The notes under the pieces are model-generated. The model searched no databases. It saw only the letters and a program-made list of their open reading frames with translations, and was not told where the DNA came from. Made by a program: the position numbers and the translations under genes. Below are positions 5,702-48,684 of a DNA stretch of 50,362 nt, in pieces. This DNA comes from an uncultured Candidatus Saccharibacteria bacterium (GTDB lineage: Bacteria; Patescibacteriota; Minisyncoccia; Minisyncoccales; Staskawiczbacteraceae): contig CAYVRE010000001.1 of assembly GCA_964453095.1 (NCBI GenBank), positions 3,440 to 53,801 of the forward strand, given 5' to 3'. How positions within the stretch are numbered: the first letter of the stretch is position 1; each line of letters starts with the position of its first letter.

Positions 5702-7901
5702 ATGGAACAATCAAACACGCCGTTGATAAAACACATAAATGACTTTTTAGATTATTGCGACGTAGAAAAAGGATTGCGCAATAATACTCAGAAGAATTAC
5801 CAGGAATATTTAAACAAATTCTTTGGGTGGTTAAAATATAAGAATTTAGAGGGCCTGCTCCCCCACCAATTGACCCCAGAGCAGATTTGGGAGTATAGAT
5901 TATACCTCTCTCGCTATCAAAACCCCAAAACAGGCAAATCCCTTAAAAAGACCACCCAGAACTACTATTTGATCGCTTTAAGGGCGTTTTTAGCCTATTT
6001 TATAGCCAAAGACATAGTTTCACTGCCACCAGGCAAAGTAACCCTTCCTAAGCCCGATAAAAGCGTTAAAACCGTCAAATTCCTTAATATAGAGCAGGTT
6101 GAGAAGCTTTTGATAGCTGCCGAGCCAAAAGACGATATTAGGCTAAGGGATAGGGCTATTTTAGAGACCTTATTCTCAACCGGGCTTAGAATCGCAGAGT
6201 TAGTAGCACTTAATACCGAACAGTTCGCGAATATAAAAAACAAGAAAGATTTTGAGCTAGGAGTTATCGGAAAAGGAGGCAATCCTAGAACAGTCTATTT
6301 CTCAGAAAGGGCTTTAGAATGGATTAAAAAATATTTAGCAACTAGAAAAGACAAAGAAAAGCCTTTATTTTTGAATGCCGGTGGCAGAAAAGATGCTGAC
6401 AGGCGCCTTACTGCGCGCTCTATTGAAAGGATCGTTAAAAAGTATGCTATATTAGCTGGTATCCCTATTTTTACAACTCCTCACACGTTAAGACATTGCC
6501 TCCATCCTTCAACCCGTATTGCCTCTACGGAGAAAATATTATCCGCCCGAGAATTATTTTTCGCAACTTCCCCGTCGCTCATTTCACTAGACCTGCAAAA
6601 GCTTAAAATAAAAAAATCTGTTGTAACTAGTAAAAGTTATCACATCGCCTCGCTTTGCTCGATTTGGGCTGACGGTTATAACTTGGTTTGTTCACCACTT
6701 CATAGAGTTTTTACACTTGGACCAGAAGGAGTAACAGAAATTAAGGTTAAGGAATTAAAACTTGGAGACTACATAATGGGGGTAAAAGAAATTGATTTTG
6801 TCGGGAAAAACTATTTAAACCCTCGCCTGTGGCGTTTGATTGGTTATGTACTAGGAGACGGTACTGTGAGCGAAAGACGAAGAGCAGTGATATTACACGA
6901 TAAAGATATAAACTTTCTAAAATTTTACCAGAATCTAGCTAGAGAATTATTGTGTCTTAACCCAAAGATAGAAAAAGTAAAAAATATAAATTCGTACAAA
7001 TTGACTATATACGATCAAGAACTAGTAAAGTTTTTCCAAGAAATTAAAATTAAGGAGAGGGCTAATATTGCCAGGATTCCATCCAGGCTTTTAGGGGCTA
7101 CTAAAGAAGAGGTGTCCCAATTTATAGCCGGATTTTATGACGCCGAAGGAAATAGCGGGACAATTAGATTTTTTTCCTCGAGCGTTGAGTTATTAAAGGA
7201 CATGCAAATTTGTCTTTTACGTTTTGGCATAGATTCGCATATAAATAAAAGAACGCGAACCGTAATGCTTCCTCAAAAAAGAGAGTTTACTCATGATTTT
7301 TTTACTCTTCATATTCTACACCAGCCAGATCAAAAGCGGTTTATAAAAGAAATACCCACCCTAAAAACCAAAAAATTAATAATTAGCAATGATTACATAG
7401 GAGACAAGATTCCAGTCAATAAAATTCTCTACAAAATAAGAAAAGAATATAATTTGGATTGATTCGTTGAGACAATTCGGAATTAATGACTTGTACAGAT
7501 ATACACGTAATGATATGATTCCTGTAAAAAACACTGTGAATAAAATTATTTTGCAACTAAAGAAAAAAGGATACAATTCATATTTATTGGGTATCCTCAA
7601 AAATATAGCCAATAACGACGAGGCCAAATGGTTAAGAGTAAAAGAAAAAAAACAACTACCTTTTGGAAGATACTCCACTTTTGATTTTGGTGCTACCCAT
7701 CACAACCTTATAACGGATGGTATTGTAAGCCATAATTCCTACGCTACCGACCTTCTTACTCAGGGCGTTGATTTGCGTTCAATCCAAGAATTTCTAGGGC
7801 ATAGAAGCATAATGACCACCCAGATATATACCCACGTAACAAACAAGCGCTTGCGTGATATACACCGTCAGTTCCATAGTGGAAAAGATTTAAAGGAGTA
7901 A
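5702..7901 (+). CDS. Tyrosine recombinase, XerC/XerD family, intein-containing, with reading frame broken once (ORFs 5702-7462 and 7467-7901)
   Basis: N-extein carries the SAM-like N-domain, TGLRIAEL (box I Arg) and HTLRH. C-extein reads [34 protein letters not shown] (catalytic Tyr). The two ORFs are in different frames, and both frames are open only in 7440-7462. Confidence 0.8.
6497..7736 (+). mobile_element. Intein (Hint splicing blocks plus double-motif LAGLIDADG homing endonuclease) in the Xer active site
   Basis: Starts with Cys (TGC 6497) directly after HTLRH. Block A is CLHPSTRI and a block B-like SPLH is present. LAGLIDADG motifs are [11 protein letters not shown] and [10 protein letters not shown]. 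It ends ...ITDGIVSHN (7736), followed by +1 Ser. Length is 1240 nt, i.e. 413 codons plus 1 nt. Confidence 0.8.
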
Positions 7902-7961: not shown

Positions 7962-8459
7962 ATGGCAATAAAAAAAGATATTAATATAGCAGCTTTGGTA
8001 AACAACGACGGATGCTTTGATCTGCAGTTCCGCAAAGATACCAGGCACGAAAGAACCAATTCCCCCACTTATTACAGATGGAAGGTTCAGTTTGTGGTGA
8101 CCGGCCCCAAGGCCAATGCCAAGATGCTGGAAAAGATAAAGGATGAAATGGGCTGTGGCGAGGTTTGCATCACAAAAGACCAGGCAAGGTTTTCGGTGCA
8201 GAAGATTGATGATATCTCCGGAACAGTCGTGCCCTTTTTCCGGAAAAATACGCTGGCTGAAAAAAAGAAGAAGGATTTTGAGCTCTGGGCCAAAAGCGTT
8301 GAGATAATTCAAAGAAATAAAGGAAAATATTTAACTGCTTGGAAAAAAAACGACCTGTGTTCTCTTATAGAAATCCAAAAGTCATCTGCTAAATATAAGA
8401 ACAGGCCGAGGCAGCCCAAGTGGCTGGAAATGGCGCAAGCTCTGTCAAAGACATCTTAA
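7962..8459 (+). CDS. Free-standing single-motif LAGLIDADG homing endonuclease
   Basis: 165 aa. N-terminal IAALVNNDGCF matches the LAGLIDADG helix. The downstream pattern (FSVQKIDDISGTVVPFFRKNTLAEKKKKDFELWAKSVEII) is typical of intron-type LAGLIDADG_1 enzymes. Confidence 0.6.
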   Translation: MAIKKDINIAALVNNDGCFDLQFRKDTRHERTNSPTYYRWKVQFVVTGPKANAKMLEKIKDEMGCGEVCITKDQARFSVQKIDDISGTVVPFFRKNTLAEKKKKDFELWAKSVEIIQRNKGKYLTAWKKNDLCSLIEIQKSSAKYKNRPRQPKWLEMAQALSKTS

Positions 8460-14649: not shown

Positions 14650-14723
14650 TGGTGGACCCACCGGGAATCGAACCCGGCCCTGATCCATGCCATGGATCCG
14701 TAATGCCGATTTACTATGGGCCC
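14650..14723 (-). tRNA. tRNA-Ala (anticodon GGC), CCA encoded
   Basis: Hand fold: GGGCCCA-TA-GTAA-ATCGGCA-TTAC-G-GATCC-ATGGCAT-GGATC-AGGG-CCGGG-TTCGATT-CCCGG-TGGGTCC-A-CCA. It has G3:U70 and A73. Confidence 0.9.
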
Positions 14724-20034: not shown

Positions 20035-20496
20035 TTATTTTGATATTTTCACTTTTGCGGGACGGAGAAGTTTTCCGTGCATTGTGTATCCTGTTTGGAC
20101 CACCTCTACGACAATCCCGGACTCTTCAGCCTGCCAGTCCTCACCCTCGCCGGAAGCATCGCGAGCGGAGACTTCTTCTACAACTTCCATATAGTTCGGG
20201 TCAAACTTTTCATAAAGTGTTTTCATTTGCTCAATCCCCTCTTTTGCCAGCAGATCGCAGAACTGTTTTTTTATTTGCGATATTCCTTCGTCGGCAATAT
20301 GTTTTTCCGCCAGGTCAAAGTTGTCTAAAATAGGGAGGATTTTCAGGATTAGCTCCTCGTTGGCGTATTTTACCATCTGTCCGATTTTCTCCATTTCCTC
20401 TTTTTTGTAGTTTAAAAAATCAGCCCGCTCTCTTTTCCAGCCGTTTAAATACTCCTCGCATTTGGCTTTTAATTCCTCAATTTCGTCCATATTCAT
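20035..20496 (-). CDS. grpE: Nucleotide exchange factor GrpE
   Basis: 153 aa. Coiled-coil N-terminus (WKRERADFLNYKKE) and position upstream of dnaK-dnaJ. Confidence 0.85.
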   Translation of the reverse strand: MNMDEIEELKAKCEEYLNGWKRERADFLNYKKEEMEKIGQMVKYANEELILKILPILDNFDLAEKHIADEGISQIKKQFCDLLAKEGIEQMKTLYEKFDPNYMEVVEEVSARDASGEGEDWQAEESGIVVEVVQTGYTMHGKLLRPAKVKISK

Positions 20497-20598
20497 ATCC
20501 GTATTATAGCAGAAAAAATCAAAAAATCAAGGGGTCTGCAGTGAAATAAAAAAAGACCGGGATTTCTCCAGGTCCTGCGCCGCCTATGAGGAGGCGCA

Positions 20599-20901
20599 TT
20601 AGCAAGACTGTTTTTGCATGCTCATGCGAGCTAGTATTTTCCCTCTGAGTTCAGAGTATTCTTCTTCAGACCGCCTTACGCGCCCTGATCGGCTGATCAG
20701 ATCGAAGTCTTGGTCCTGCATCTTCCTTGCCAAGGCGATAATATCATCAAGTATTTTCACATCGGTCGCGGTTAGCACGCGATTCTGCATAATCCTGCTG
20801 GTAATCTGCGCTCTGATGCGCAGAAGAGAAAACTGATCATCAATATGGACGGCCAGCTCATTCAACAGCTCTTTGTCGCTCATATCGGACGGCTCTTTCA
20901 T
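20599..20901 (-). CDS. Hypothetical protein (100 aa), orphan
   Basis: AGGAGG lies 6 nt before the ATG. Predicted all-helical, GC-rich relative to core, with hairpins and a T-run downstream (20540-20598). Confidence 0.5.
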   Translation of the reverse strand: MKEPSDMSDKELLNELAVHIDDQFSLLRIRAQITSRIMQNRVLTATDVKILDDIIALARKMQDQDFDLISRSGRVRRSEEEYSELRGKILARMSMQKQSC

Positions 20902-20916
20902 GGCACACCTCCTGTG

Positions 20917-21183
20917 TTAAGTAAGCCTAAAACAGTTCGACGGGATGGGTTCACCCACTATTATTCTTTCGCGCAGCTCATCGACATCGGACCAATTGAA
21001 GCCGAGCTCAGGGTGCGAGGCAAAACGGCCGGCGGATTTTATGGCTTCTCCGGCGCCCGCATCGTTGTAGAAAAAGATGTACGCTTCCCCGCCCTTTATC
21101 AGGCAGCGGATGTTTATATCCTTTGTCTCGCTGAGAAGAGCTAATCCCCTCGCCATCATTAATTCTCCGATGTCTTTTTTCAT
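20917..21183 (-). CDS. Hypothetical protein (88 aa from the SD-proximal ATG), orphan
   Basis: AAGGAAAGGA lies upstream of ATG 21183 (MKKDIGEL...). The gene is 15 nt upstream of the 100-aa ORF and directly downstream of the tRNA-like gene. Confidence 0.45.
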   Translation of the reverse strand: MKKDIGELMMARGLALLSETKDINIRCLIKGGEAYIFFYNDAGAGEAIKSAGRFASHPELGFNWSDVDELRERIIVGEPIPSNCFRLT

Positions 21184-21235
21184 AGGACAATCCTTTCCTT
21201 TTGAAAACAAAAAATACAATTTTCAACGAGCGGAG

Positions 21236-21312
21236 TGGAGCCGATAGGATTCGAACCTACATATTCCACCCTGCTTTCGCAGGGGTGCTGTCCTATATCA
21301 GCTTACGGCCCC
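21236..21312 (-). ncRNA. tRNA-Ala-like RNA lacking an anticodon loop
   Basis: Hand fold: GGGGCCG-TAA-GCTG-ATATAGGA-CAGC-A-CCCCTGC-GAAA-GCAGGGTGG-AATAT-GTAGG-TTCGAAT-CCTAT-CGGCTCC-A. It has a 7-bp acceptor stem with G3:U70 and A73, plus canonical D and T arms. The anticodon arm is replaced by a 6-7 bp helix closed by a GAAA tetraloop. Confidence 0.7.
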
Positions 21313-21327
21313 AATAAACTAATATCT

Positions 21328-21356
21328 ATAATATTACTTTTAATAAAGTTTTGCAA
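21328..21356 (-). promoter_or_regulatory. Promoter for the tRNA-like gene
   Basis: On the minus strand, TTGCAA (21351-21356), 17 nt, TATTAT (21328-21333), 15 nt before the RNA 5' end. Confidence 0.5.
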
Positions 21357-45705: not shown

Positions 45706-46689
45706 TTAAATAATTCTTCTGATAAATTTGATTATTCTATATGCGTTATACCAAAAGCCCTGAAAAACCATATCTAGGCCGGCAGGATATTCAACTTCCC
45801 TTCCGCCGAAACCTTTTTTGAAGGAAGTCAGATCGGGCCATTTCTTTTCATCAATTCCCCAGAAATCGCACTCTTGCATCCCCATCTTTTTCGCTTCGGA
45901 AATAATATTCCACCTCAAAAGATTAGAACCCTTAACGTGCCTGTACTCATAATCTGAGCCGGAATGCAGAGTAAAAGCCTTCTTGTTAAAAAACACGACG
46001 ATAGTGGCATTGATTATCCTATCCTTATATCTGGCCAAGAACAATTCGGTTTTAACAAACTCTCCGTCAATTTTCAGTATGTTTTTATAATACTCTTCCG
46101 CGTGGCCGCTGAATTCCTGCCTTTCTTTTGTTCCCTTAAGCAGCCTATAAAAGTCGGGGGAATAATCTTTTTGTTTTTCAATAACAACCCCGTCTCTCCG
46201 GGCAATGCTTATATTCCGCCTGGACCCGCTGCTGAGGTTTTTAAATAGCTCTTCTTCTGTTTTTGTTAAATCTAAAATCAAAGTTTTTTGTGGCTGAATC
46301 CTTCTAAAAGGACGACAGATCCTTGCTTCAATCATTTTATCCAATGGGACAAGGGGCTCTATTCTTAAAAAAACGCTATTCTCTTCGGACGCTAATTCCT
46401 GAATCCCATCAATTAAAATCTTCAAACAGGCCTTCTGCCGGCTTAAATCCAGGTTATTTTTGAAAATTGGGCCATAGGGAATGTATAAATAATTTTTGAA
46501 GAGCAGCCCCTCTTTTATAACCTGGGCCTGGACAAGAATGTCACTACCCTCATATACCTTCAATCTAAAAACCTTTTTTGAAGATTTTTCCTGAAGCTCT
46601 CCCCATTCAAAAGATTGCAAAAAACTGCCGCTGTTCTCAATTAGGAAACTATTCCATTCATTTTTATCGTTAGAAAATTTTAGCTCCAT
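45706..46689 (-). CDS. FemAB-family peptidoglycan peptidyltransferase (paralog 2)
   Basis: 327 aa. N-terminal ...FLQSFEWGELQEKS pattern. Confidence 0.75.
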   Translation of the reverse strand: MELKFSNDKNEWNSFLIENSGSFLQSFEWGELQEKSSKKVFRLKVYEGSDILVQAQVIKEGLLFKNYLYIPYGPIFKNNLDLSRQKACLKILIDGIQELASEENSVFLRIEPLVPLDKMIEARICRPFRRIQPQKTLILDLTKTEEELFKNLSSGSRRNISIARRDGVVIEKQKDYSPDFYRLLKGTKERQEFSGHAEEYYKNILKIDGEFVKTELFLARYKDRIINATIVVFFNKKAFTLHSGSDYEYRHVKGSNLLRWNIISEAKKMGMQECDFWGIDEKKWPDLTSFKKGFGGREVEYPAGLDMVFQGFWYNAYRIIKFIRRII

Positions 46690-46694
46690 GCTGA

Positions 46695-47447
46695 TTAAAC
46701 GTTTTCTAAAACTTTTACTGCCAACACCTCGGCTTGCTTCCTGTTCAAATCATGGCCGGCTTCCGGGATGACGACCAGCTTTGACTTTTTTATCTGCCTG
46801 TTTATGAAACGGCCATCTTCGATAGAGGTAAACTCGTCCTTGTCCCCCCAGATGATCGTTGTCGGAACTTTAACAAATGGCAGATGGAAAGAAAGGTCTT
46901 CAGCTATAATATTTAGATAGGTTTCTCTCATGACGCCCTTAACGTAGACATAGTCGCTCTTTTTTATTATAAACTTGTATACCGCCTTCCTCAGAAAATT
47001 ATAATAAGGCAGAAAATTAAACAGCTTCACAACTTTTGATATCTTGGCAAACATCCCTTTCTTGGCTGTTTTTTTTCTTACGCAGGCGGCAGATACCAAA
47101 AACAATCCCTTAATTTCCTGACTATGCTTTACCGCCAGCTTTGATGCTAAAGCTCCTCCGAAGGAGTGGCCGAGCAGATAAAATCCGCTTCTGAACTCAG
47201 AATAGTTTTTAATAAACTCTTCAATCCAGGCAACATACTTATTGGTATTCCACGGCCCCGGAAGAGGGTCTGATGTGCCAAATCCCGGCAAGTCAGGAAC
47301 CATGACCTTAAATCCTTTCTGCGAAATTATTTCTGCAACCTCCTGCCACCTCTCTGAATTAGACCCCCAGCCATGCAAAATCAAAAAGGGCTTGCCCTCG
47401 CCAAAAACCTGGCAATTTGTTTTTATCCCGTTAATTGTAATTTCCAT
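46695..47447 (-). CDS. Alpha/beta-fold hydrolase
   Basis: HGWGS oxyanion region and nucleophile elbow GHSFGG. 250 aa. Confidence 0.8.
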   Translation of the reverse strand: MEITINGIKTNCQVFGEGKPFLILHGWGSNSERWQEVAEIISQKGFKVMVPDLPGFGTSDPLPGPWNTNKYVAWIEEFIKNYSEFRSGFYLLGHSFGGALASKLAVKHSQEIKGLFLVSAACVRKKTAKKGMFAKISKVVKLFNFLPYYNFLRKAVYKFIIKKSDYVYVKGVMRETYLNIIAEDLSFHLPFVKVPTTIIWGDKDEFTSIEDGRFINRQIKKSKLVVIPEAGHDLNRKQAEVLAVKVLENV

Positions 47448-48684
47448 TTATAACCTTAAATCCGCAATATTTTTGCAATGCCCGGGGCACCCTTATGCTC
47501 CCGTCTTTCTGCTGATAGTTTTCCATAATCATTATCAAAATTCTTCCGACAGCAAAAGCTGTTCCGTTGAGCGTATGCACAAAGTTTAATTTGCCAGACT
47601 TGTCGCGATAGCGCATATTAAGGCGCCTGGCCTGAAAATCAGTACAGTTAGAAGTTGAATGCGTCTCTCTATATTTGTTTTCCGAGGGCAACCAGGCCTC
47701 AATATCATACTTTGCAGCTGCCGGCCTGCCTAAATCTCCGGTGCATATGCTTATAACCTGATAAGGCAATTCCAATGCTTTCATCAGTTTTTCCTCAATA
47801 GATAAAAGCAGCTGATGCTCTTTTTTAGAATCCTCGGGATTGCAGAATATTACCATCTCCAGTTTATCAAACTGATGCACCCTTAAAATCCCCTTGGTAT
47901 CTTTGCCATAAGAACCGGCTTCCCTGCGGAAACAAGTAGAAAAGGCAACATATCTTAAAGGCAAATCCTTTTCATTTAATACTTCATCGGCATGCATGGC
48001 TATTAAGGGCTGCTCTGATGTACCGGCTAAATACATTTTGTCTTCCGGAAGATAATAGGCCTCTTTCTCGTCTGTGGCCTCAAAGTATCCTGTTCCCCTG
48101 GCCATCTGATCTTTCAACATCACCGGCGGAATAACAGGAATAAATCCCTCTTTTTTTACAGTATCCATGACCAAATTAATCAAAGCGAACTCAAGCAGGG
48201 GCAGCTCTCTTTTCAGATAACCAAACCTGGCGCCAGCCACCTTGCCGGCCCTTTCTGTATCAATTAAGTCCAGCTCCCGGCCTAATTGCATATAGTCCTT
48301 TGTCGGGAAATTAAACTTGGCCGGCTTGCCAACCTGCCTTAAAACAACGTTTTCAGAATCATCCTTCCCTACCGGCACATCGTCAAAAGGAATATTGGGA
48401 AGCATAATCAATAAGCTGTTTAACTCGGCTTCTGTTTTCTTTAATTCTGGCTCCAGCTCCTTAAATTTGTCTTTCAATTCTCTTGCCTTAGCCACAGCCG
48501 ATTCATTATGCCCGGCCCTGCTTATCTTATTCTGTTCCGCTTTCAGGCCTTCCAACTCAACCAATAATTCCCTTCTCTCGCGGTCCAATAGAAGAACCTT
48601 GTCTATATCAACTTTGGCCTGCTTGTTCTGGCAGGCTTCTTTAACCTTCTGCGGATTTTCCCTGATAAAGTTAATGTCTAACAT
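47431..48684 (-). CDS. serS: Seryl-tRNA synthetase
   Basis: 417 aa. N-terminal coiled-coil arm and a class II core (FRREAGSYGKDTKGILRVHQF, NGTAFAVGR). Confidence 0.95.
   Translation of the reverse strand: MLDINFIRENPQKVKEACQNKQAKVDIDKVLLLDRERRELLVELEGLKAEQNKISRAGHNESAVAKARELKDKFKELEPELKKTEAELNSLLIMLPNIPFDDVPVGKDDSENVVLRQVGKPAKFNFPTKDYMQLGRELDLIDTERAGKVAGARFGYLKRELPLLEFALINLVMDTVKKEGFIPVIPPVMLKDQMARGTGYFEATDEKEAYYLPEDKMYLAGTSEQPLIAMHADEVLNEKDLPLRYVAFSTCFRREAGSYGKDTKGILRVHQFDKLEMVIFCNPEDSKKEHQLLLSIEEKLMKALELPYQVISICTGDLGRPAAAKYDIEAWLPSENKYRETHSTSNCTDFQARRLNMRYRDKSGKLNFVHTLNGTAFAVGRILIMIMENYQQKDGSIRVPRALQKYCGFKVINGNYN

What the first reader, a model, noticed from the sequence alone, without database searches (positions are those of the whole stretch)
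20599..21356. tRNA-Ala-shaped RNA gene with AlaRS identity elements but no anticodon loop, with its own promoter, leading a two-gene orphan operon
The 77-nt gene (21236-21312, minus) has several tRNA features. It folds with a 7-bp acceptor stem containing G3:U70 and discriminator A73, the established alanine identity set. It has a 4-bp D-stem with a GG-containing loop, a 5-nt variable region and a canonical GTAGG-TTCGAAT-CCTAT T-arm. The anticodon arm, however, is CCCTGC-GAAA-GCAGGG, a 6-bp helix extendable to 7 bp with one bulge and closed by a GNRA tetraloop. I found no register that yields a 7-nt loop with U33, so it cannot decode. It has a TTGCAA-N17-TATTAT promoter and no encoded CCA. An AT-rich hairpin follows, then two SD-led orphan ORFs (88 and 100 aa) on the same strand, all within a GC-rich islet. 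AlaRS recognises the acceptor helix alone, so such an RNA could plausibly be alanylated without entering translation. That would make it a candidate dedicated aminoacyl donor for the two FemAB-family transferases in this window; Fem enzymes use aminoacyl-tRNAs, and non-proteinogenic tRNA isoacceptors are known in staphylococci. Alternatives are a decoy for tRNA-targeting toxins or nucleases, a processing or stability module for the downstream mRNA, or a decayed tRNA or integration-site remnant.
Basis: partly seen in the sequence, partly recalled or inferred. Interest (0 to 1): 0.8.

Follow-up and report, generated by a model that had tools for sequence, protein, structure and literature searches.

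The report
Anticodon-less alanine tRNA look-alike gene
A small group of ultra-small groundwater bacteria keeps a tRNA-alanine copy whose anticodon loop is replaced by a short capped hairpin, so it probably still accepts alanine but cannot read the genetic code; its use is unknown.

Summary
Window 21236-21312(-) is a 77-nt cloverleaf that passes Rfam's tRNA threshold; ARAGORN does not call it. Its anticodon arm is a 6-7 bp helix closed by GAAA. The sequence is identical in three independent assemblies, so it is not an indel artefact.

It is not a one-off. I found five more copies in related Patescibacteria (Parcubacteria-type) contigs. All keep G1-G4, G3:U70 and A73, a D arm and a T arm. The "anticodon arm" is a stump of 3-8 bp with GAAA, UUU or UCA loops, and every stump pair covaries (99% of cells paired; 11 of 23 pairs changed on both sides).

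Each copy has its own sigma-70-type promoter and no encoded CCA. All six are followed by a homologue of the 100-aa ORF. Most lie between an FKBP gene and hrcA/grpE-dnaK.

The ORFs are not orphans. ORF88 belongs to a large Planctomycetota family. ORF100 has a small Patescibacteria family.

Best reading: a selected, non-decoding tRNA-Ala paralogue, matured like a tRNA and probably alanylated, that works with the ORF100 protein. The Fem-donor idea gains no support from synteny. Decay is refuted. It is a new variant of the known non-decoding tRNA-like RNAs. Function is inferred, not shown.

The parts
21328..21356 (-). sigma-70-type promoter TTGCAA-N17-TATTAT, about 15 nt upstream of G1 of the RNA
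   Evidence: 9/12 match. The same TTGCAA/TTGACT-N17-TATTAT/TATCAT arrangement lies at the same distance upstream of the homologues in L117, L123, L131 and L109.
21236..21312 (-). 77-nt tRNA-Ala-derived RNA gene without an anticodon loop ('stump tRNA-Ala')
   Evidence: Rfam RF00005 34.3 bits. Cloverleaf MFE -33.1 kcal/mol, z -3.84. Identical in 3 other assemblies. Five homologues with covariation.
21267..21285 (-). stump helix CCCCUGC-GAAA-GCAGGG(U)G replacing the anticodon arm; GAAA at 21275-21278
   Evidence: In homologues the helix is 3-8 bp with GAAA, UUU or UCA loops, and all 7 model pairs show changes on both sides.
21184..21235 (-). 3' trailer and leader of ORF88. No CCA follows A73. AT-rich hairpin UUGAAAA-N12-UUUUCAA at about 21201-21226, then SD AGGAAAGGA
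   Evidence: Direct reading. The motif CAAAAGGAAAGG before the ATG is conserved in L117, L123 and L127. No terminator is called between the RNA and ORF88.
20917..21183 (-). ORF88, member of a conserved small-protein family (motif DINVLALVKGxERYVFLYDD...GRFASNPELSFxWYDAAVLSQKIRQ)
   Evidence: 554 homologues at E<=1e-3. Alignment A2. The family is mainly in Planctomycetota, where 72/80 loci carry an xerC-like gene just downstream. Patescibacteria copies sit behind the RNA in L123, L127 and L131; the L117 copy is truncated and L109 has none.
20599..20901 (-). ORF100, four-helix small protein with conserved C-terminal motif D-x-D-L-x3-S-x-R-x7-Y-x-E-x-R-x3-L-x2-M
   Evidence: Homologues P0274-P0279 and L131. 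One follows the RNA in 6/6 loci. AlphaFold2 pLDDT 84.8, helical, no PDB match. No Pfam, NCBIfam or PADLOC family.
20545..20596 (-). two hairpins and a U-run after ORF100, read as the terminator of the module
   Evidence: Direct reading (GCGCC...GGCGGCGC, then GACCUGG-AGAAAU-CCCGGUC-UUUUUUUAUUU). The equivalent hairpin plus U-run follows the ORF100 homologue in L109. The simple scan does not list it, because of one mismatch in the stem.
20503..20530 (-). separate promoter of grpE (TTGATT-N16-TG-TATAAT). It marks the downstream end of the module
   Evidence: 10/12, extended -10. grpE at 20035-20496.

Best explanation
A selectively maintained, non-decoding paralogue of tRNA-Ala.

Proposed steps:
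1. It is transcribed from its own promoter as the first element of an RNA-ORF88-ORF100 transcript.
2. It is cut out by the ordinary tRNA-processing enzymes: RNase P at the 5' side, and RNase Z or an equivalent after A73.
3. It receives CCA from the CCA-adding enzyme.
4. It is charged with alanine by AlaRS, because it keeps the complete acceptor-stem identity set and the D/T elbow.
5. The anticodon arm is only a capped stump, so it cannot pair with a codon and stays outside normal decoding.
6. Its job is therefore one that needs only the upper half of a tRNA: an acceptor end, charged or not. It most likely acts together with the co-transcribed ORF100-family protein, and it lies in a neighbourhood of protein-folding and heat-shock genes.

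Shown: the conserved structure, the conserved Ala identity elements, the absence of an anticodon loop, and the conserved linkage to a promoter and to ORF100.

Inferred: processing, CCA addition, alanylation, partnership with ORF100, and the downstream use.
For: Structure and authenticity: Rfam tRNA hit above threshold, cloverleaf MFE z -3.84, identical sequence in independent assemblies.

Family: six homologues, namely the window, L117, L123 (the same contig region also in L124-L126), L127, L109 and L131.

Covariation: 99.2% of pair cells form standard pairs, against 82% in shuffles and 40-50% when partners are slid. 11 of 23 pairs change on both sides. 0/500 shuffles reach the covariation score. 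An independent MAFFT/RNAalifold run recovers the acceptor, D and T helices.

Ala identity: pairs 1:72 to 4:69 with G3:U70, and A73, are invariant in 6/6, whereas 5:68 takes three forms (UA, CG, AU). The D loop of five homologues reads as G18 G19 G20 A21, as in E. coli tRNA-Ala (numbering is my reading).

Stump: it varies from 3 to 8 bp and in loop sequence, so only its presence as a closed helix is kept.

CCA: it is also absent from the window's genuine tRNA-Lys and tRNA-Gln genes, so the cell must add it.

Linkage: a promoter is conserved upstream. An ORF100 homologue follows in 6/6 loci. No terminator is called between the RNA and the ORFs.

Established knowledge (mine, not tested here): E. 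coli AlaRS charges minihelices and tmRNA through G3:U70 without using an anticodon.
Against: There are no expression, end-mapping or charging data.

Only six sequences from one clade are available, and the covariation alignment was fitted to the model.

G18 is replaced by A in the window copy. There is an extra nucleotide between the acceptor and D stems in 5/6 copies, and its effect on the L-shape is unknown.

Close relatives lack the module entirely: L005, L006 and L008. L010 has only a degenerate cloverleaf with A3:U70 at the syntenic site. The module is therefore dispensable.

The partner proteins have no recognisable fold or family, so nothing points to a specific acceptor of the alanine.
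Confidence: 0.6

Rival explanations
1. Cis-acting processing or stability module. The cloverleaf exists only so that RNase P/RNase Z cleavage defines, or a stable 5' structure protects, the 5' end of the ORF88-ORF100 mRNA. This is how mascRNA marks the end of MALAT1 and how tRNAs punctuate polycistronic transcripts. The released RNA has no function of its own.
For: The RNA always lies directly upstream of the ORFs, with no terminator called between them. The stump length is free. L010 carries a non-Ala, degenerate cloverleaf with its own promoter before a small ORF at the syntenic place.
Against: RNase P and RNase Z do not need G3:U70, A73 or G1-G4. Yet these are invariant while neighbouring pairs vary. 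An intact D/T elbow with GG and UUCGAAU is also kept. ORF88-family genes in Planctomycetota have no such leader.
Confidence: 0.17
2. First reader's hypothesis. The RNA is a dedicated alanyl donor for the FemAB-family peptidoglycan transferases, analogous to the non-proteinogenic tRNA-Gly species of staphylococci.
For: Two FemAB-family genes are in the window. By established knowledge, Weissella FemX accepts Ala-charged acceptor-arm helices, so an anticodon is not needed. An RNA kept out of decoding would not compete with translation.
Against: There is no genomic linkage. The fem genes are 20-25 kb away in a mur/fts cluster next to SerRS. The 10-kb L123 locus holds no fem gene. In all loci with enough flanking sequence the module sits among FKBP, hrcA, grpE and dnaK. 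Close relatives lack the module.
Confidence: 0.08
3. Decoy or RNA antitoxin. The RNA offers a tRNA acceptor end to enzymes that attack it, such as 3'-CCA-modifying nucleotidyltransferase or pyrophosphokinase toxins, or aminoacyl-tRNA acetyltransferases. This would protect real tRNAs, with ORF100 or ORF88 as the partner toxin or regulator.
For: The order promoter-RNA-small protein resembles type III toxin-antitoxin loci. Similar Ala-type stump cloverleaves occur in a phage-like contig (L106) and in viral contigs (L097/L098), where anti-defence decoys are plausible. The module is patchily distributed.
Against: No PADLOC, Pfam or NCBIfam match for either protein. The RNA is a single copy rather than an array. 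The chromosomal position is stable beside housekeeping chaperone genes in several lineages.
Confidence: 0.08
4. Decayed tRNA-Ala pseudogene, integration-site remnant or assembly artefact.
For: The stump stem CCUGC/GCAGG equals the usual tRNA-Ala(UGC) anticodon stem (my knowledge), so it derives from a tRNA-Ala. ARAGORN rejects it.
Against: The sequence is identical in independent assemblies. Six homologues show compensatory changes in all helices and an intact promoter. No integrase or repeat lies nearby.
Confidence: 0.02

Closest known systems
tRNA-like domain of tmRNA (SsrA), including the mRNA-less mitochondrial tmRNAs of jakobids
   Same: GGGG...CUCCA acceptor stem with G3:U70 and A73, a UUCGA T loop and no anticodon. 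tmRNA is alanylated by AlaRS. The Rfam tmRNA model aligns to both ends of the element.
   Different: The whole RNA is 77 nt. There is no tag reading frame and no pseudoknot (302 model positions are skipped; 20.9 bits against a gathering score of 47). It has a true 4-bp D stem and a closed stump where tmRNA has helix 2 leading to the mRNA part. No SmpB link is known here.
Non-proteinogenic tRNA-Gly isoacceptors of Staphylococcus used by FemXAB
   Same: A tRNA paralogue thought to be charged by the normal synthetase but kept out of ribosomal decoding.
   Different: Those keep a normal anticodon loop and escape through weak EF-Tu binding. This RNA has no anticodon loop at all, has alanine identity, and shows no genomic link to fem genes.
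mascRNA / MEN-beta tRNA-like RNAs (vertebrates)
   Same: A cloverleaf with intact acceptor, D and T arms and a shortened anticodon arm without an anticodon. It is part of a longer transcript and is released by RNase P and RNase Z.
   Different: Those are eukaryotic, lie at the 3' end of a lncRNA, are not aminoacylated and carry no synthetase identity set. This one is bacterial, lies at the 5' end of an mRNA, and its Ala identity set is strictly conserved.
tRNA-Other of Bacillus cereus and the irregular or allo-tRNA-like polycistrons (Mukai et al. 2017, PMC5389517)
   Same: Bacterial tRNA-like small RNAs that are probably charged but not used in translation. The Ala-type stump cloverleaf in L104/L108 lies in such an irregular tRNA polycistron.
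   Different: Those retain anticodon loops. None is described with a tetraloop-capped stump, or with this gene context, in the papers I could read.
Bacterial Y RNA (YrlA) tRNA-like module
   Same: A tRNA mimic using D/T elbow contacts, without decoding.
   Different: By my knowledge, in YrlA the 5'/3' ends form the Ro-binding stem and the acceptor-like stem is closed. Here the acceptor ends are free and the anticodon side is closed. No rsr or rtcB genes are nearby.

Membership tests
canonical elongator tRNA (Rfam RF00005, tRNA-Ala) | cloverleaf with 7-bp acceptor stem, D arm with GG, T arm with UUCGAAU-type loop | tested here: met
canonical elongator tRNA (Rfam RF00005, tRNA-Ala) | 5-bp anticodon stem closing a 7-nt loop with U33 and an anticodon | tested here: not met
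   ARAGORN does not call it. The loop is GAAA on a 6-7 bp helix. Homologues have 3-8 bp stems with 3-4-nt loops.
canonical elongator tRNA (Rfam RF00005, tRNA-Ala) | AlaRS identity set in the sequence (G3:U70, A73, G1-G4) | tested here: met
   Invariant in 6/6 homologues.
canonical elongator tRNA (Rfam RF00005, tRNA-Ala) | actual aminoacylation and a 3' CCA end | not testable with these tools
   CCA is not encoded. The same holds for the window's tRNA-Lys and tRNA-Gln. Biochemistry is needed.
tmRNA (RF00023) | mRNA-like domain with tag reading frame and pseudoknots between the two acceptor strands | tested here: not met
   Only 63 nt lie between the acceptor strands. 302 model positions are deleted, giving 20.9 bits against a gathering score of 47. 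ARAGORN finds no tmRNA in the window.
tmRNA (RF00023) | alanine-type acceptor stem and T arm | tested here: met
   alignment.
Fem-dedicated non-proteinogenic tRNA | association with fem genes or cell-wall cross-bridge synthesis | tested here: not met
   The fem genes are 20-25 kb away and absent from the L123 locus. Function itself was not tested.
tRNA pseudogene or integration remnant | no selection on structure; disrupted helices; adjoining integrase or direct repeat | tested here: not met
   Compensatory changes in all helices. Conserved promoter. No integrase nearby.
mascRNA-like processed tRNA-like element | cloverleaf with truncated anticodon arm embedded in a longer transcript | tested here: inconclusive
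   The structure fits and no terminator is called before ORF88. Co-transcription and RNase P/Z cleavage cannot be tested here.
known anti-phage defence or toxin-antitoxin proteins (for ORF88 and ORF100) | match to a PADLOC, Pfam or NCBIfam model | tested here: not met

The most novel reading that the evidence does not exclude
The RNA is an mRNA-independent alanine donor for ribosome-associated quality control. It would act either as a tag-less 'mini-tmRNA' or as a dedicated Ala-tailing tRNA. It would work on stalled ribosomes or on obstructed 50S subunits, where no codon has to be read. The ORF100-family four-helix protein would be its adaptor, in the place of SmpB or RqcH. This would explain three things: only the upper half of the tRNA and the Ala identity are conserved, the stump length is free, and the module sits beside FKBP, hrcA, grpE, dnaK and dnaJ.
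Probability: 0.08. Interest if true: 0.9.

Novelty: new variant of a known kind. Interest (0 to 1): 0.66.

Why it matters
Non-decoding uses of aminoacyl-tRNA are known: cell-wall cross-bridges, lipid aminoacylation, peptide natural products, trans-translation and Ala-tailing. A cellular, cloverleaf-shaped tRNA whose anticodon loop has been cleanly removed by evolution, while the synthetase identity set is kept, has not been described in the literature or in Rfam as far as I could search.

If it is charged, it would be a natural 'upper-half' tRNA. It would be a compact model for AlaRS, EF-Tu and ribosome interactions without decoding. It would also point to an unknown alanine-dependent process in Patescibacteria, organisms with minimal genomes in which every retained RNA gene is informative.

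The same pattern search also turned up Ala-type stump cloverleaves in phage-like and other contigs. The phenomenon may therefore be wider than this clade.

Tried and rejected
- Assembly or indel artefact: rejected. The sequence is identical in L001, L003 and L004.
- Synteny in the closest GrpE relatives (L005-L011): no homologous RNA. I first read this as a lineage-specific insertion upstream of grpE. I revised that after L109, L117 and L123 showed the module at the same FKBP-to-grpE position.
- ORF88 as DUF3467, which lies next to grpE in relatives: rejected. BLASTP E = 4 and no Pfam hit.
- The 170-aa upstream protein as HrcA: rejected. It is a conserved unknown protein, 60% identical to the L123 neighbour.
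- A tRNA-like leader before ORF88-family genes in Planctomycetota: none in 80 loci.
- Structure prediction and PDB fold search for ORF88 (pLDDT 65) and ORF100 (pLDDT 85): no match at E<=0.001.
- PADLOC and NCBIfam scans: nothing.
- Cultured-phage BLAST with the RNA: only T-arm matches to ordinary phage tRNAs.
- Viral scan with the family's 5' half: only ordinary tRNAs, L132 and L133.
- Literature searches for an anticodon-less Ala tRNA-like RNA in bacteria or CPR: nothing relevant.
Full report
**1. What the window is**

The window is a stretch of bacterial chromosome with housekeeping genes. These include murD-type ligases, ftsW, murG, GluRS, uppS, CTP synthase, L9, dnaJ-dnaK-grpE, an FKBP gene, an AddB/UvrD-type helicase, dnaX, CysRS, dnaB, recR, sortase, ftsQ, two FemAB-family genes, SerRS and LysRS.

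GrpE's best named relatives are Candidatus Staskawiczbacteria and 'Patescibacteria group'. The organism is therefore a Parcubacteria-type member of the Candidate Phyla Radiation. GC content is 41.8%.

**2. The observation**

On the minus strand, 21312 to 21236 reads:

GGGGCCG UAA GCUG AUAUAGGA CAGC A CCCCUGC GAAA GCAGGG(U)G GAAUAU GUAGG UUCGAAU CCUAU CGGCUCC A

- Rfam's tRNA model scores it 34.3 bits against a gathering score of 29.
- The minimum-free-energy fold is exactly this cloverleaf: -33.1 kcal/mol, z = -3.84, and no shuffle of 200 is as stable.
- ARAGORN does not call it, although it finds tRNA-Ala(GGC), tRNA-Lys and tRNA-Gln elsewhere in the window.
- With relaxed thresholds the tmRNA model aligns to the two ends only, skipping 302 model positions (20.9 bits against 47).
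- The stump stem CCUGC/GCAGG is the usual anticodon stem of bacterial tRNA-Ala(UGC) (my knowledge). The gene therefore looks like a tRNA-Ala whose 7-nt loop became GAAA.
- The RNA and its flanks are identical in three independent ENA assemblies from other samples (L001, L003, L004). The missing loop is not an assembly error.
- The promoter TTGCAA-N17-TATTAT is recovered by the scan.
- No CCA is encoded. The window's tRNA-Lys and tRNA-Gln genes also lack CCA, while tRNA-Ala(GGC) has it. The cell must therefore add CCA enzymatically.

**3. Homologues**

The closest GrpE relatives (about 73% identity; L005-L011) have hrcA-like and grpE genes abutting, and no such RNA.

A degenerate DNA pattern was scanned over the metagenome collection. 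The pattern was GGG-N4-TA...GCGAAAGC...GGTTCGANTCC-N7-TCCA. I estimate about 0.03 chance matches. It gave 24 loci. Two of these are true homologues:
- L117, from Hainich groundwater.
- L109, from the same sample as relative L005.

A profile of the ORF100 protein and its L117 and L109 counterparts then found four more proteins. Their contigs gave L123 (Rifle groundwater; the same region recurs in L124-L126) and L127. One ORF88 homologue led to L131.

That makes six RNAs:

| Locus | Length | Stump |
|---|---|---|
| window | 77 nt | 7 bp with bulge, GAAA |
| L117 | 78 nt | 7 bp, GAAA |
| L123 | 76 nt | CCUGCGCA-UUU-UGUGCAGG |
| L127 | 73 nt | GUCGCC-UCA-GGCGAC |
| L109 | 73 nt | CUGGC-GAAA-GCCAG |
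| L131 | 68 nt | CCC-GAAA-GGG |

**4. Covariation**

The counts below come from the model-guided alignment A6.
- 99.2% of pair cells form standard pairs. The figure is 82% in column shuffles and 40-50% when partners are slid by 1-3 columns.
- 11 of 23 pairs change on both sides.
- No shuffle of 500 reaches the observed covariation score.
- G1:C72, G2:C71, G3:U70, G4:C69, C6:G67, G7:C66 and A73 never vary.
- Pair 5:68 takes three forms: U:A, C:G and A:U.
- D-stem pair 13:22 flips between C:G and G:C.
- Three T-stem pairs vary.
- All seven stump pairs covary.

The alignment is fitted to the model, which favours the structure. A plain MAFFT/RNAalifold run still recovers the acceptor, D and T helices with the same compensatory pairs. 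Each stump also folds on its own.

Five of the six D loops read ...GGGA. I interpret this as G18 G19 G20 A21, as in E. coli tRNA-Ala. The window copy has A in place of the first G.

The pattern of conservation has three parts. The synthetase-facing acceptor end and the elbow are fixed. The anticodon side is free in length and sequence. The anticodon side is always closed. This is what selection for an alanine-accepting 'upper half' would produce. It is not what decay would produce.

**5. The module and its context**

A sigma-70-type promoter lies at the same distance upstream in the window, L117, L123, L131 and L109.

Downstream, a conserved leader (CAAAAGGAAAGG...AUG) precedes an ORF88-family gene in the window, L123, L127 and L131. 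In L117 that gene is internally deleted. In L109 it is absent.

An ORF100-family gene follows in all six loci. A hairpin and U-run, then the next gene's promoter, follow where the sequence was read (window; L109). No terminator is called between the RNA and the ORFs.

The module lies directly after the FKBP gene in L109, L117 and L127. In the window and L123 a conserved 170-aa protein sits in between (60% identical between the two). The module precedes hrcA or grpE, with a GDPD gene inserted in L123. L131 has an EamA gene upstream instead.

It is thus a vertically inherited, occasionally lost element of this clade's FKBP-to-dnaK region, not a recent insertion. L010 has a cloverleaf with its own promoter at the syntenic site. 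That cloverleaf has A3:U70, a non-canonical T loop (UCCAAGU) and no GG in the D loop, and a different small ORF follows it. I read it as a decayed or retargeted relative, but this is uncertain.

**6. The two proteins**

ORF100 alone found only itself among 5.8 billion proteins. The three-sequence profile found a small family. AlphaFold2 gives a confident four-helix model (pLDDT 84.8) with no PDB match.

ORF88 has 554 homologues at E<=1e-3, with a strongly conserved core. In reference genomes they are overwhelmingly Planctomycetota. There, 72 of 80 loci carry an xerC/xerD-like recombinase gene immediately downstream. No tRNA-like gene lies upstream in those loci. The ORF88 model is of low confidence (pLDDT 65) and matches nothing.

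Neither protein matches Pfam, NCBIfam or PADLOC. The conserved core of the module is therefore RNA plus ORF100. ORF88 is an optional passenger, probably exchanged horizontally with Planctomycetota. This fits the slightly higher GC of the cassette (46.6%).

**7. Mechanism**

Shown:
- a conserved RNA gene derived from tRNA-Ala;
- no anticodon loop;
- an intact Ala identity set;
- its own promoter;
- obligatory linkage to ORF100.

Inferred from established tRNA biology:
- RNase P and RNase Z release it;
- the CCA-adding enzyme completes it;
- AlaRS charges it. AlaRS reads G3:U70 in the acceptor helix and also charges tmRNA and minihelices.

It cannot be selected on a codon.

What the alanyl-RNA, or its bare acceptor end, is used for is unknown. 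I rank the options as follows:
1. An upper-half tRNA function carried out with ORF100. The target is undefined, and the quality-control variant is kept as the novel case.
2. A pure processing or stability module for the mRNA.
3. The Fem-donor hypothesis.
4. A decoy or antitoxin.

The Fem idea is biochemically reasonable but gains nothing from gene neighbourhood. The fem genes lie in the mur/fts cluster 20-25 kb away, next to SerRS. They are absent from the other loci I could see.

**8. Comparison with known systems, and novelty**

- It works most like the tRNA-like domain of tmRNA. It is not a tmRNA, because it has no coding part and no pseudoknots and it does have a D stem.
- It resembles mascRNA in shape and in being part of a longer transcript. 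Unlike mascRNA, it carries a conserved synthetase identity set.
- It resembles the staphylococcal non-proteinogenic tRNA-Gly and B. cereus tRNA-Other in concept. Unlike them, it lacks an anticodon loop altogether.

Rfam 15 has no family for it beyond the generic tRNA hit. My literature searches found no description. The library is incomplete, so prior description cannot be excluded.

I classify it as a new variant of a known kind: non-decoding tRNA-like RNAs.

**9. Wider class**

The same pattern scans found other cloverleaves with G3:U70 and A73 and a capped stump instead of an anticodon loop.
- A phage-like contig, L106 (65 nt, 4 bp plus GAAA), next to VRR-NUC-like and HNH-like genes by my reading of the ORFs.
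- A high-GC polycistron of irregular tRNAs, L104/L108 (73 nt, 7 bp plus GAAA).
- Viral contigs L097/L098 (82 nt, with a long stem and an 11-nt loop).
- Several elements inside tRNA arrays.

The pattern required GGG, UCCA and GCGAAAGC, so these hits are biased by construction. Their full cloverleaf complementarity is not imposed by the pattern.

**10. Verdict**

The finding is real, clean and apparently undescribed. It has a directly testable biochemical prediction, but its function is still inferred.

Noticed in passing
L005:4990-5440 and L008:5130-5480 (relatives of the window organism): Between a promoter and a terminator just upstream of hrcA-grpE, both relatives carry a ~300-nt GC-rich non-coding stretch. 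It has shared blocks (CCAUGAAUG, AGUCGGGUGCGAGGAUAAG, CCCUCGCACCCGAC) and obvious long-range complementarity. No Rfam family matches. It may be an undescribed structured RNA at the site where the window clade has the tRNA-like module.
   Followed up: partly
L010:5138-5210 (also L011): A 73-nt cloverleaf with its own TTGACA promoter lies at the syntenic site between msrA and hrcA. It has acceptor CGAGACG/CGUCUCG with A3:U70, a 7-nt loop GCCCAUG without U33, T loop UCCAAGU and no GG in the D loop, and a 78-aa ORF follows it. ARAGORN and Rfam at gathering threshold miss it. It may be a decayed or retargeted relative of the family.
   Followed up: partly
L012-L091 (Planctomycetota genomes): The ORF88 protein family (no Pfam model, 554 representatives) lies directly upstream of, and on the same strand as, an xerC/xerD-like tyrosine recombinase in 72 of 80 loci. 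This is a conserved, unannotated partner of Xer recombinases in Planctomycetota.
   Followed up: partly
L092:11440-11508(+) and L095:2265-2333(-) (IMG/VR contigs): These are 69-nt cloverleaves. They have perfect but different 7-bp acceptor stems and T stems (compensatory between the two), a normal D arm and a CUGC-GAAA-GCAG stump. They lie inside long ORFs that share the peptide EPAKAECxGFDS. L092 reaches the Rfam tRNA threshold at 31.5 bits. They are not Ala-type.
   Followed up: partly
L104:865-1104(-) (same in L108): Three adjoining irregular tRNA-like genes in a high-GC contig. The first is an Ala-type stump cloverleaf. The second has a hairpin-containing expanded anticodon region. This resembles the irregular tRNA polycistrons reported by Mukai et al. 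(PMC5389517).
   Followed up: no
L106:3169-3233(-); L097:2258-2339; L098:1001-1082: Ala-type (G3:U70, A73) tRNA-like genes without a normal anticodon loop, in a phage-like contig and in viral contigs. Stump tRNA-Ala mimics may also be carried by phages.
   Followed up: partly
L101, L111, L114, L122 (large metagenome contigs): 87-nt tRNA-Ala-like genes with an intact CCUGC/GCAGG anticodon stem but a ~21-nt loop that contains a UGC-GAAA-GCA hairpin. They look like intron-containing tRNA-Ala genes, possibly archaeal.
   Followed up: no
window 5702-7901(+) and 7962-8459(+): A tyrosine recombinase (XerC/D-like) is interrupted by an intein with a LAGLIDADG endonuclease domain. Its C-terminal catalytic part is called as a separate ORF. 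A free-standing LAGLIDADG endonuclease ORF follows.
   Followed up: no
window 14650-14723(-): ARAGORN calls tRNA-Ala(GGC), with an encoded CCA. It is absent from the Rfam gathering-threshold list. Its D arm (GUAAAUCGGCAUUAC) is unusual. An equivalent gene in relative L008 scores 55.5 bits.
   Followed up: partly
window 45706-48684(-): One of the two FemAB-family genes sits in a run with an alpha/beta hydrolase gene and SerRS, inside the mur cluster. This could hint that these Fem enzymes use Ser-tRNA rather than Ala-tRNA.
   Followed up: no
L093:1662-1823(-): In a phage tRNA array, the spacer between tRNA-Ser and tRNA-Tyr holds a ~115-nt element with a T arm, a UUCG hairpin and a GCGAAAGC hairpin. 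It is not called as a tRNA.
   Followed up: no
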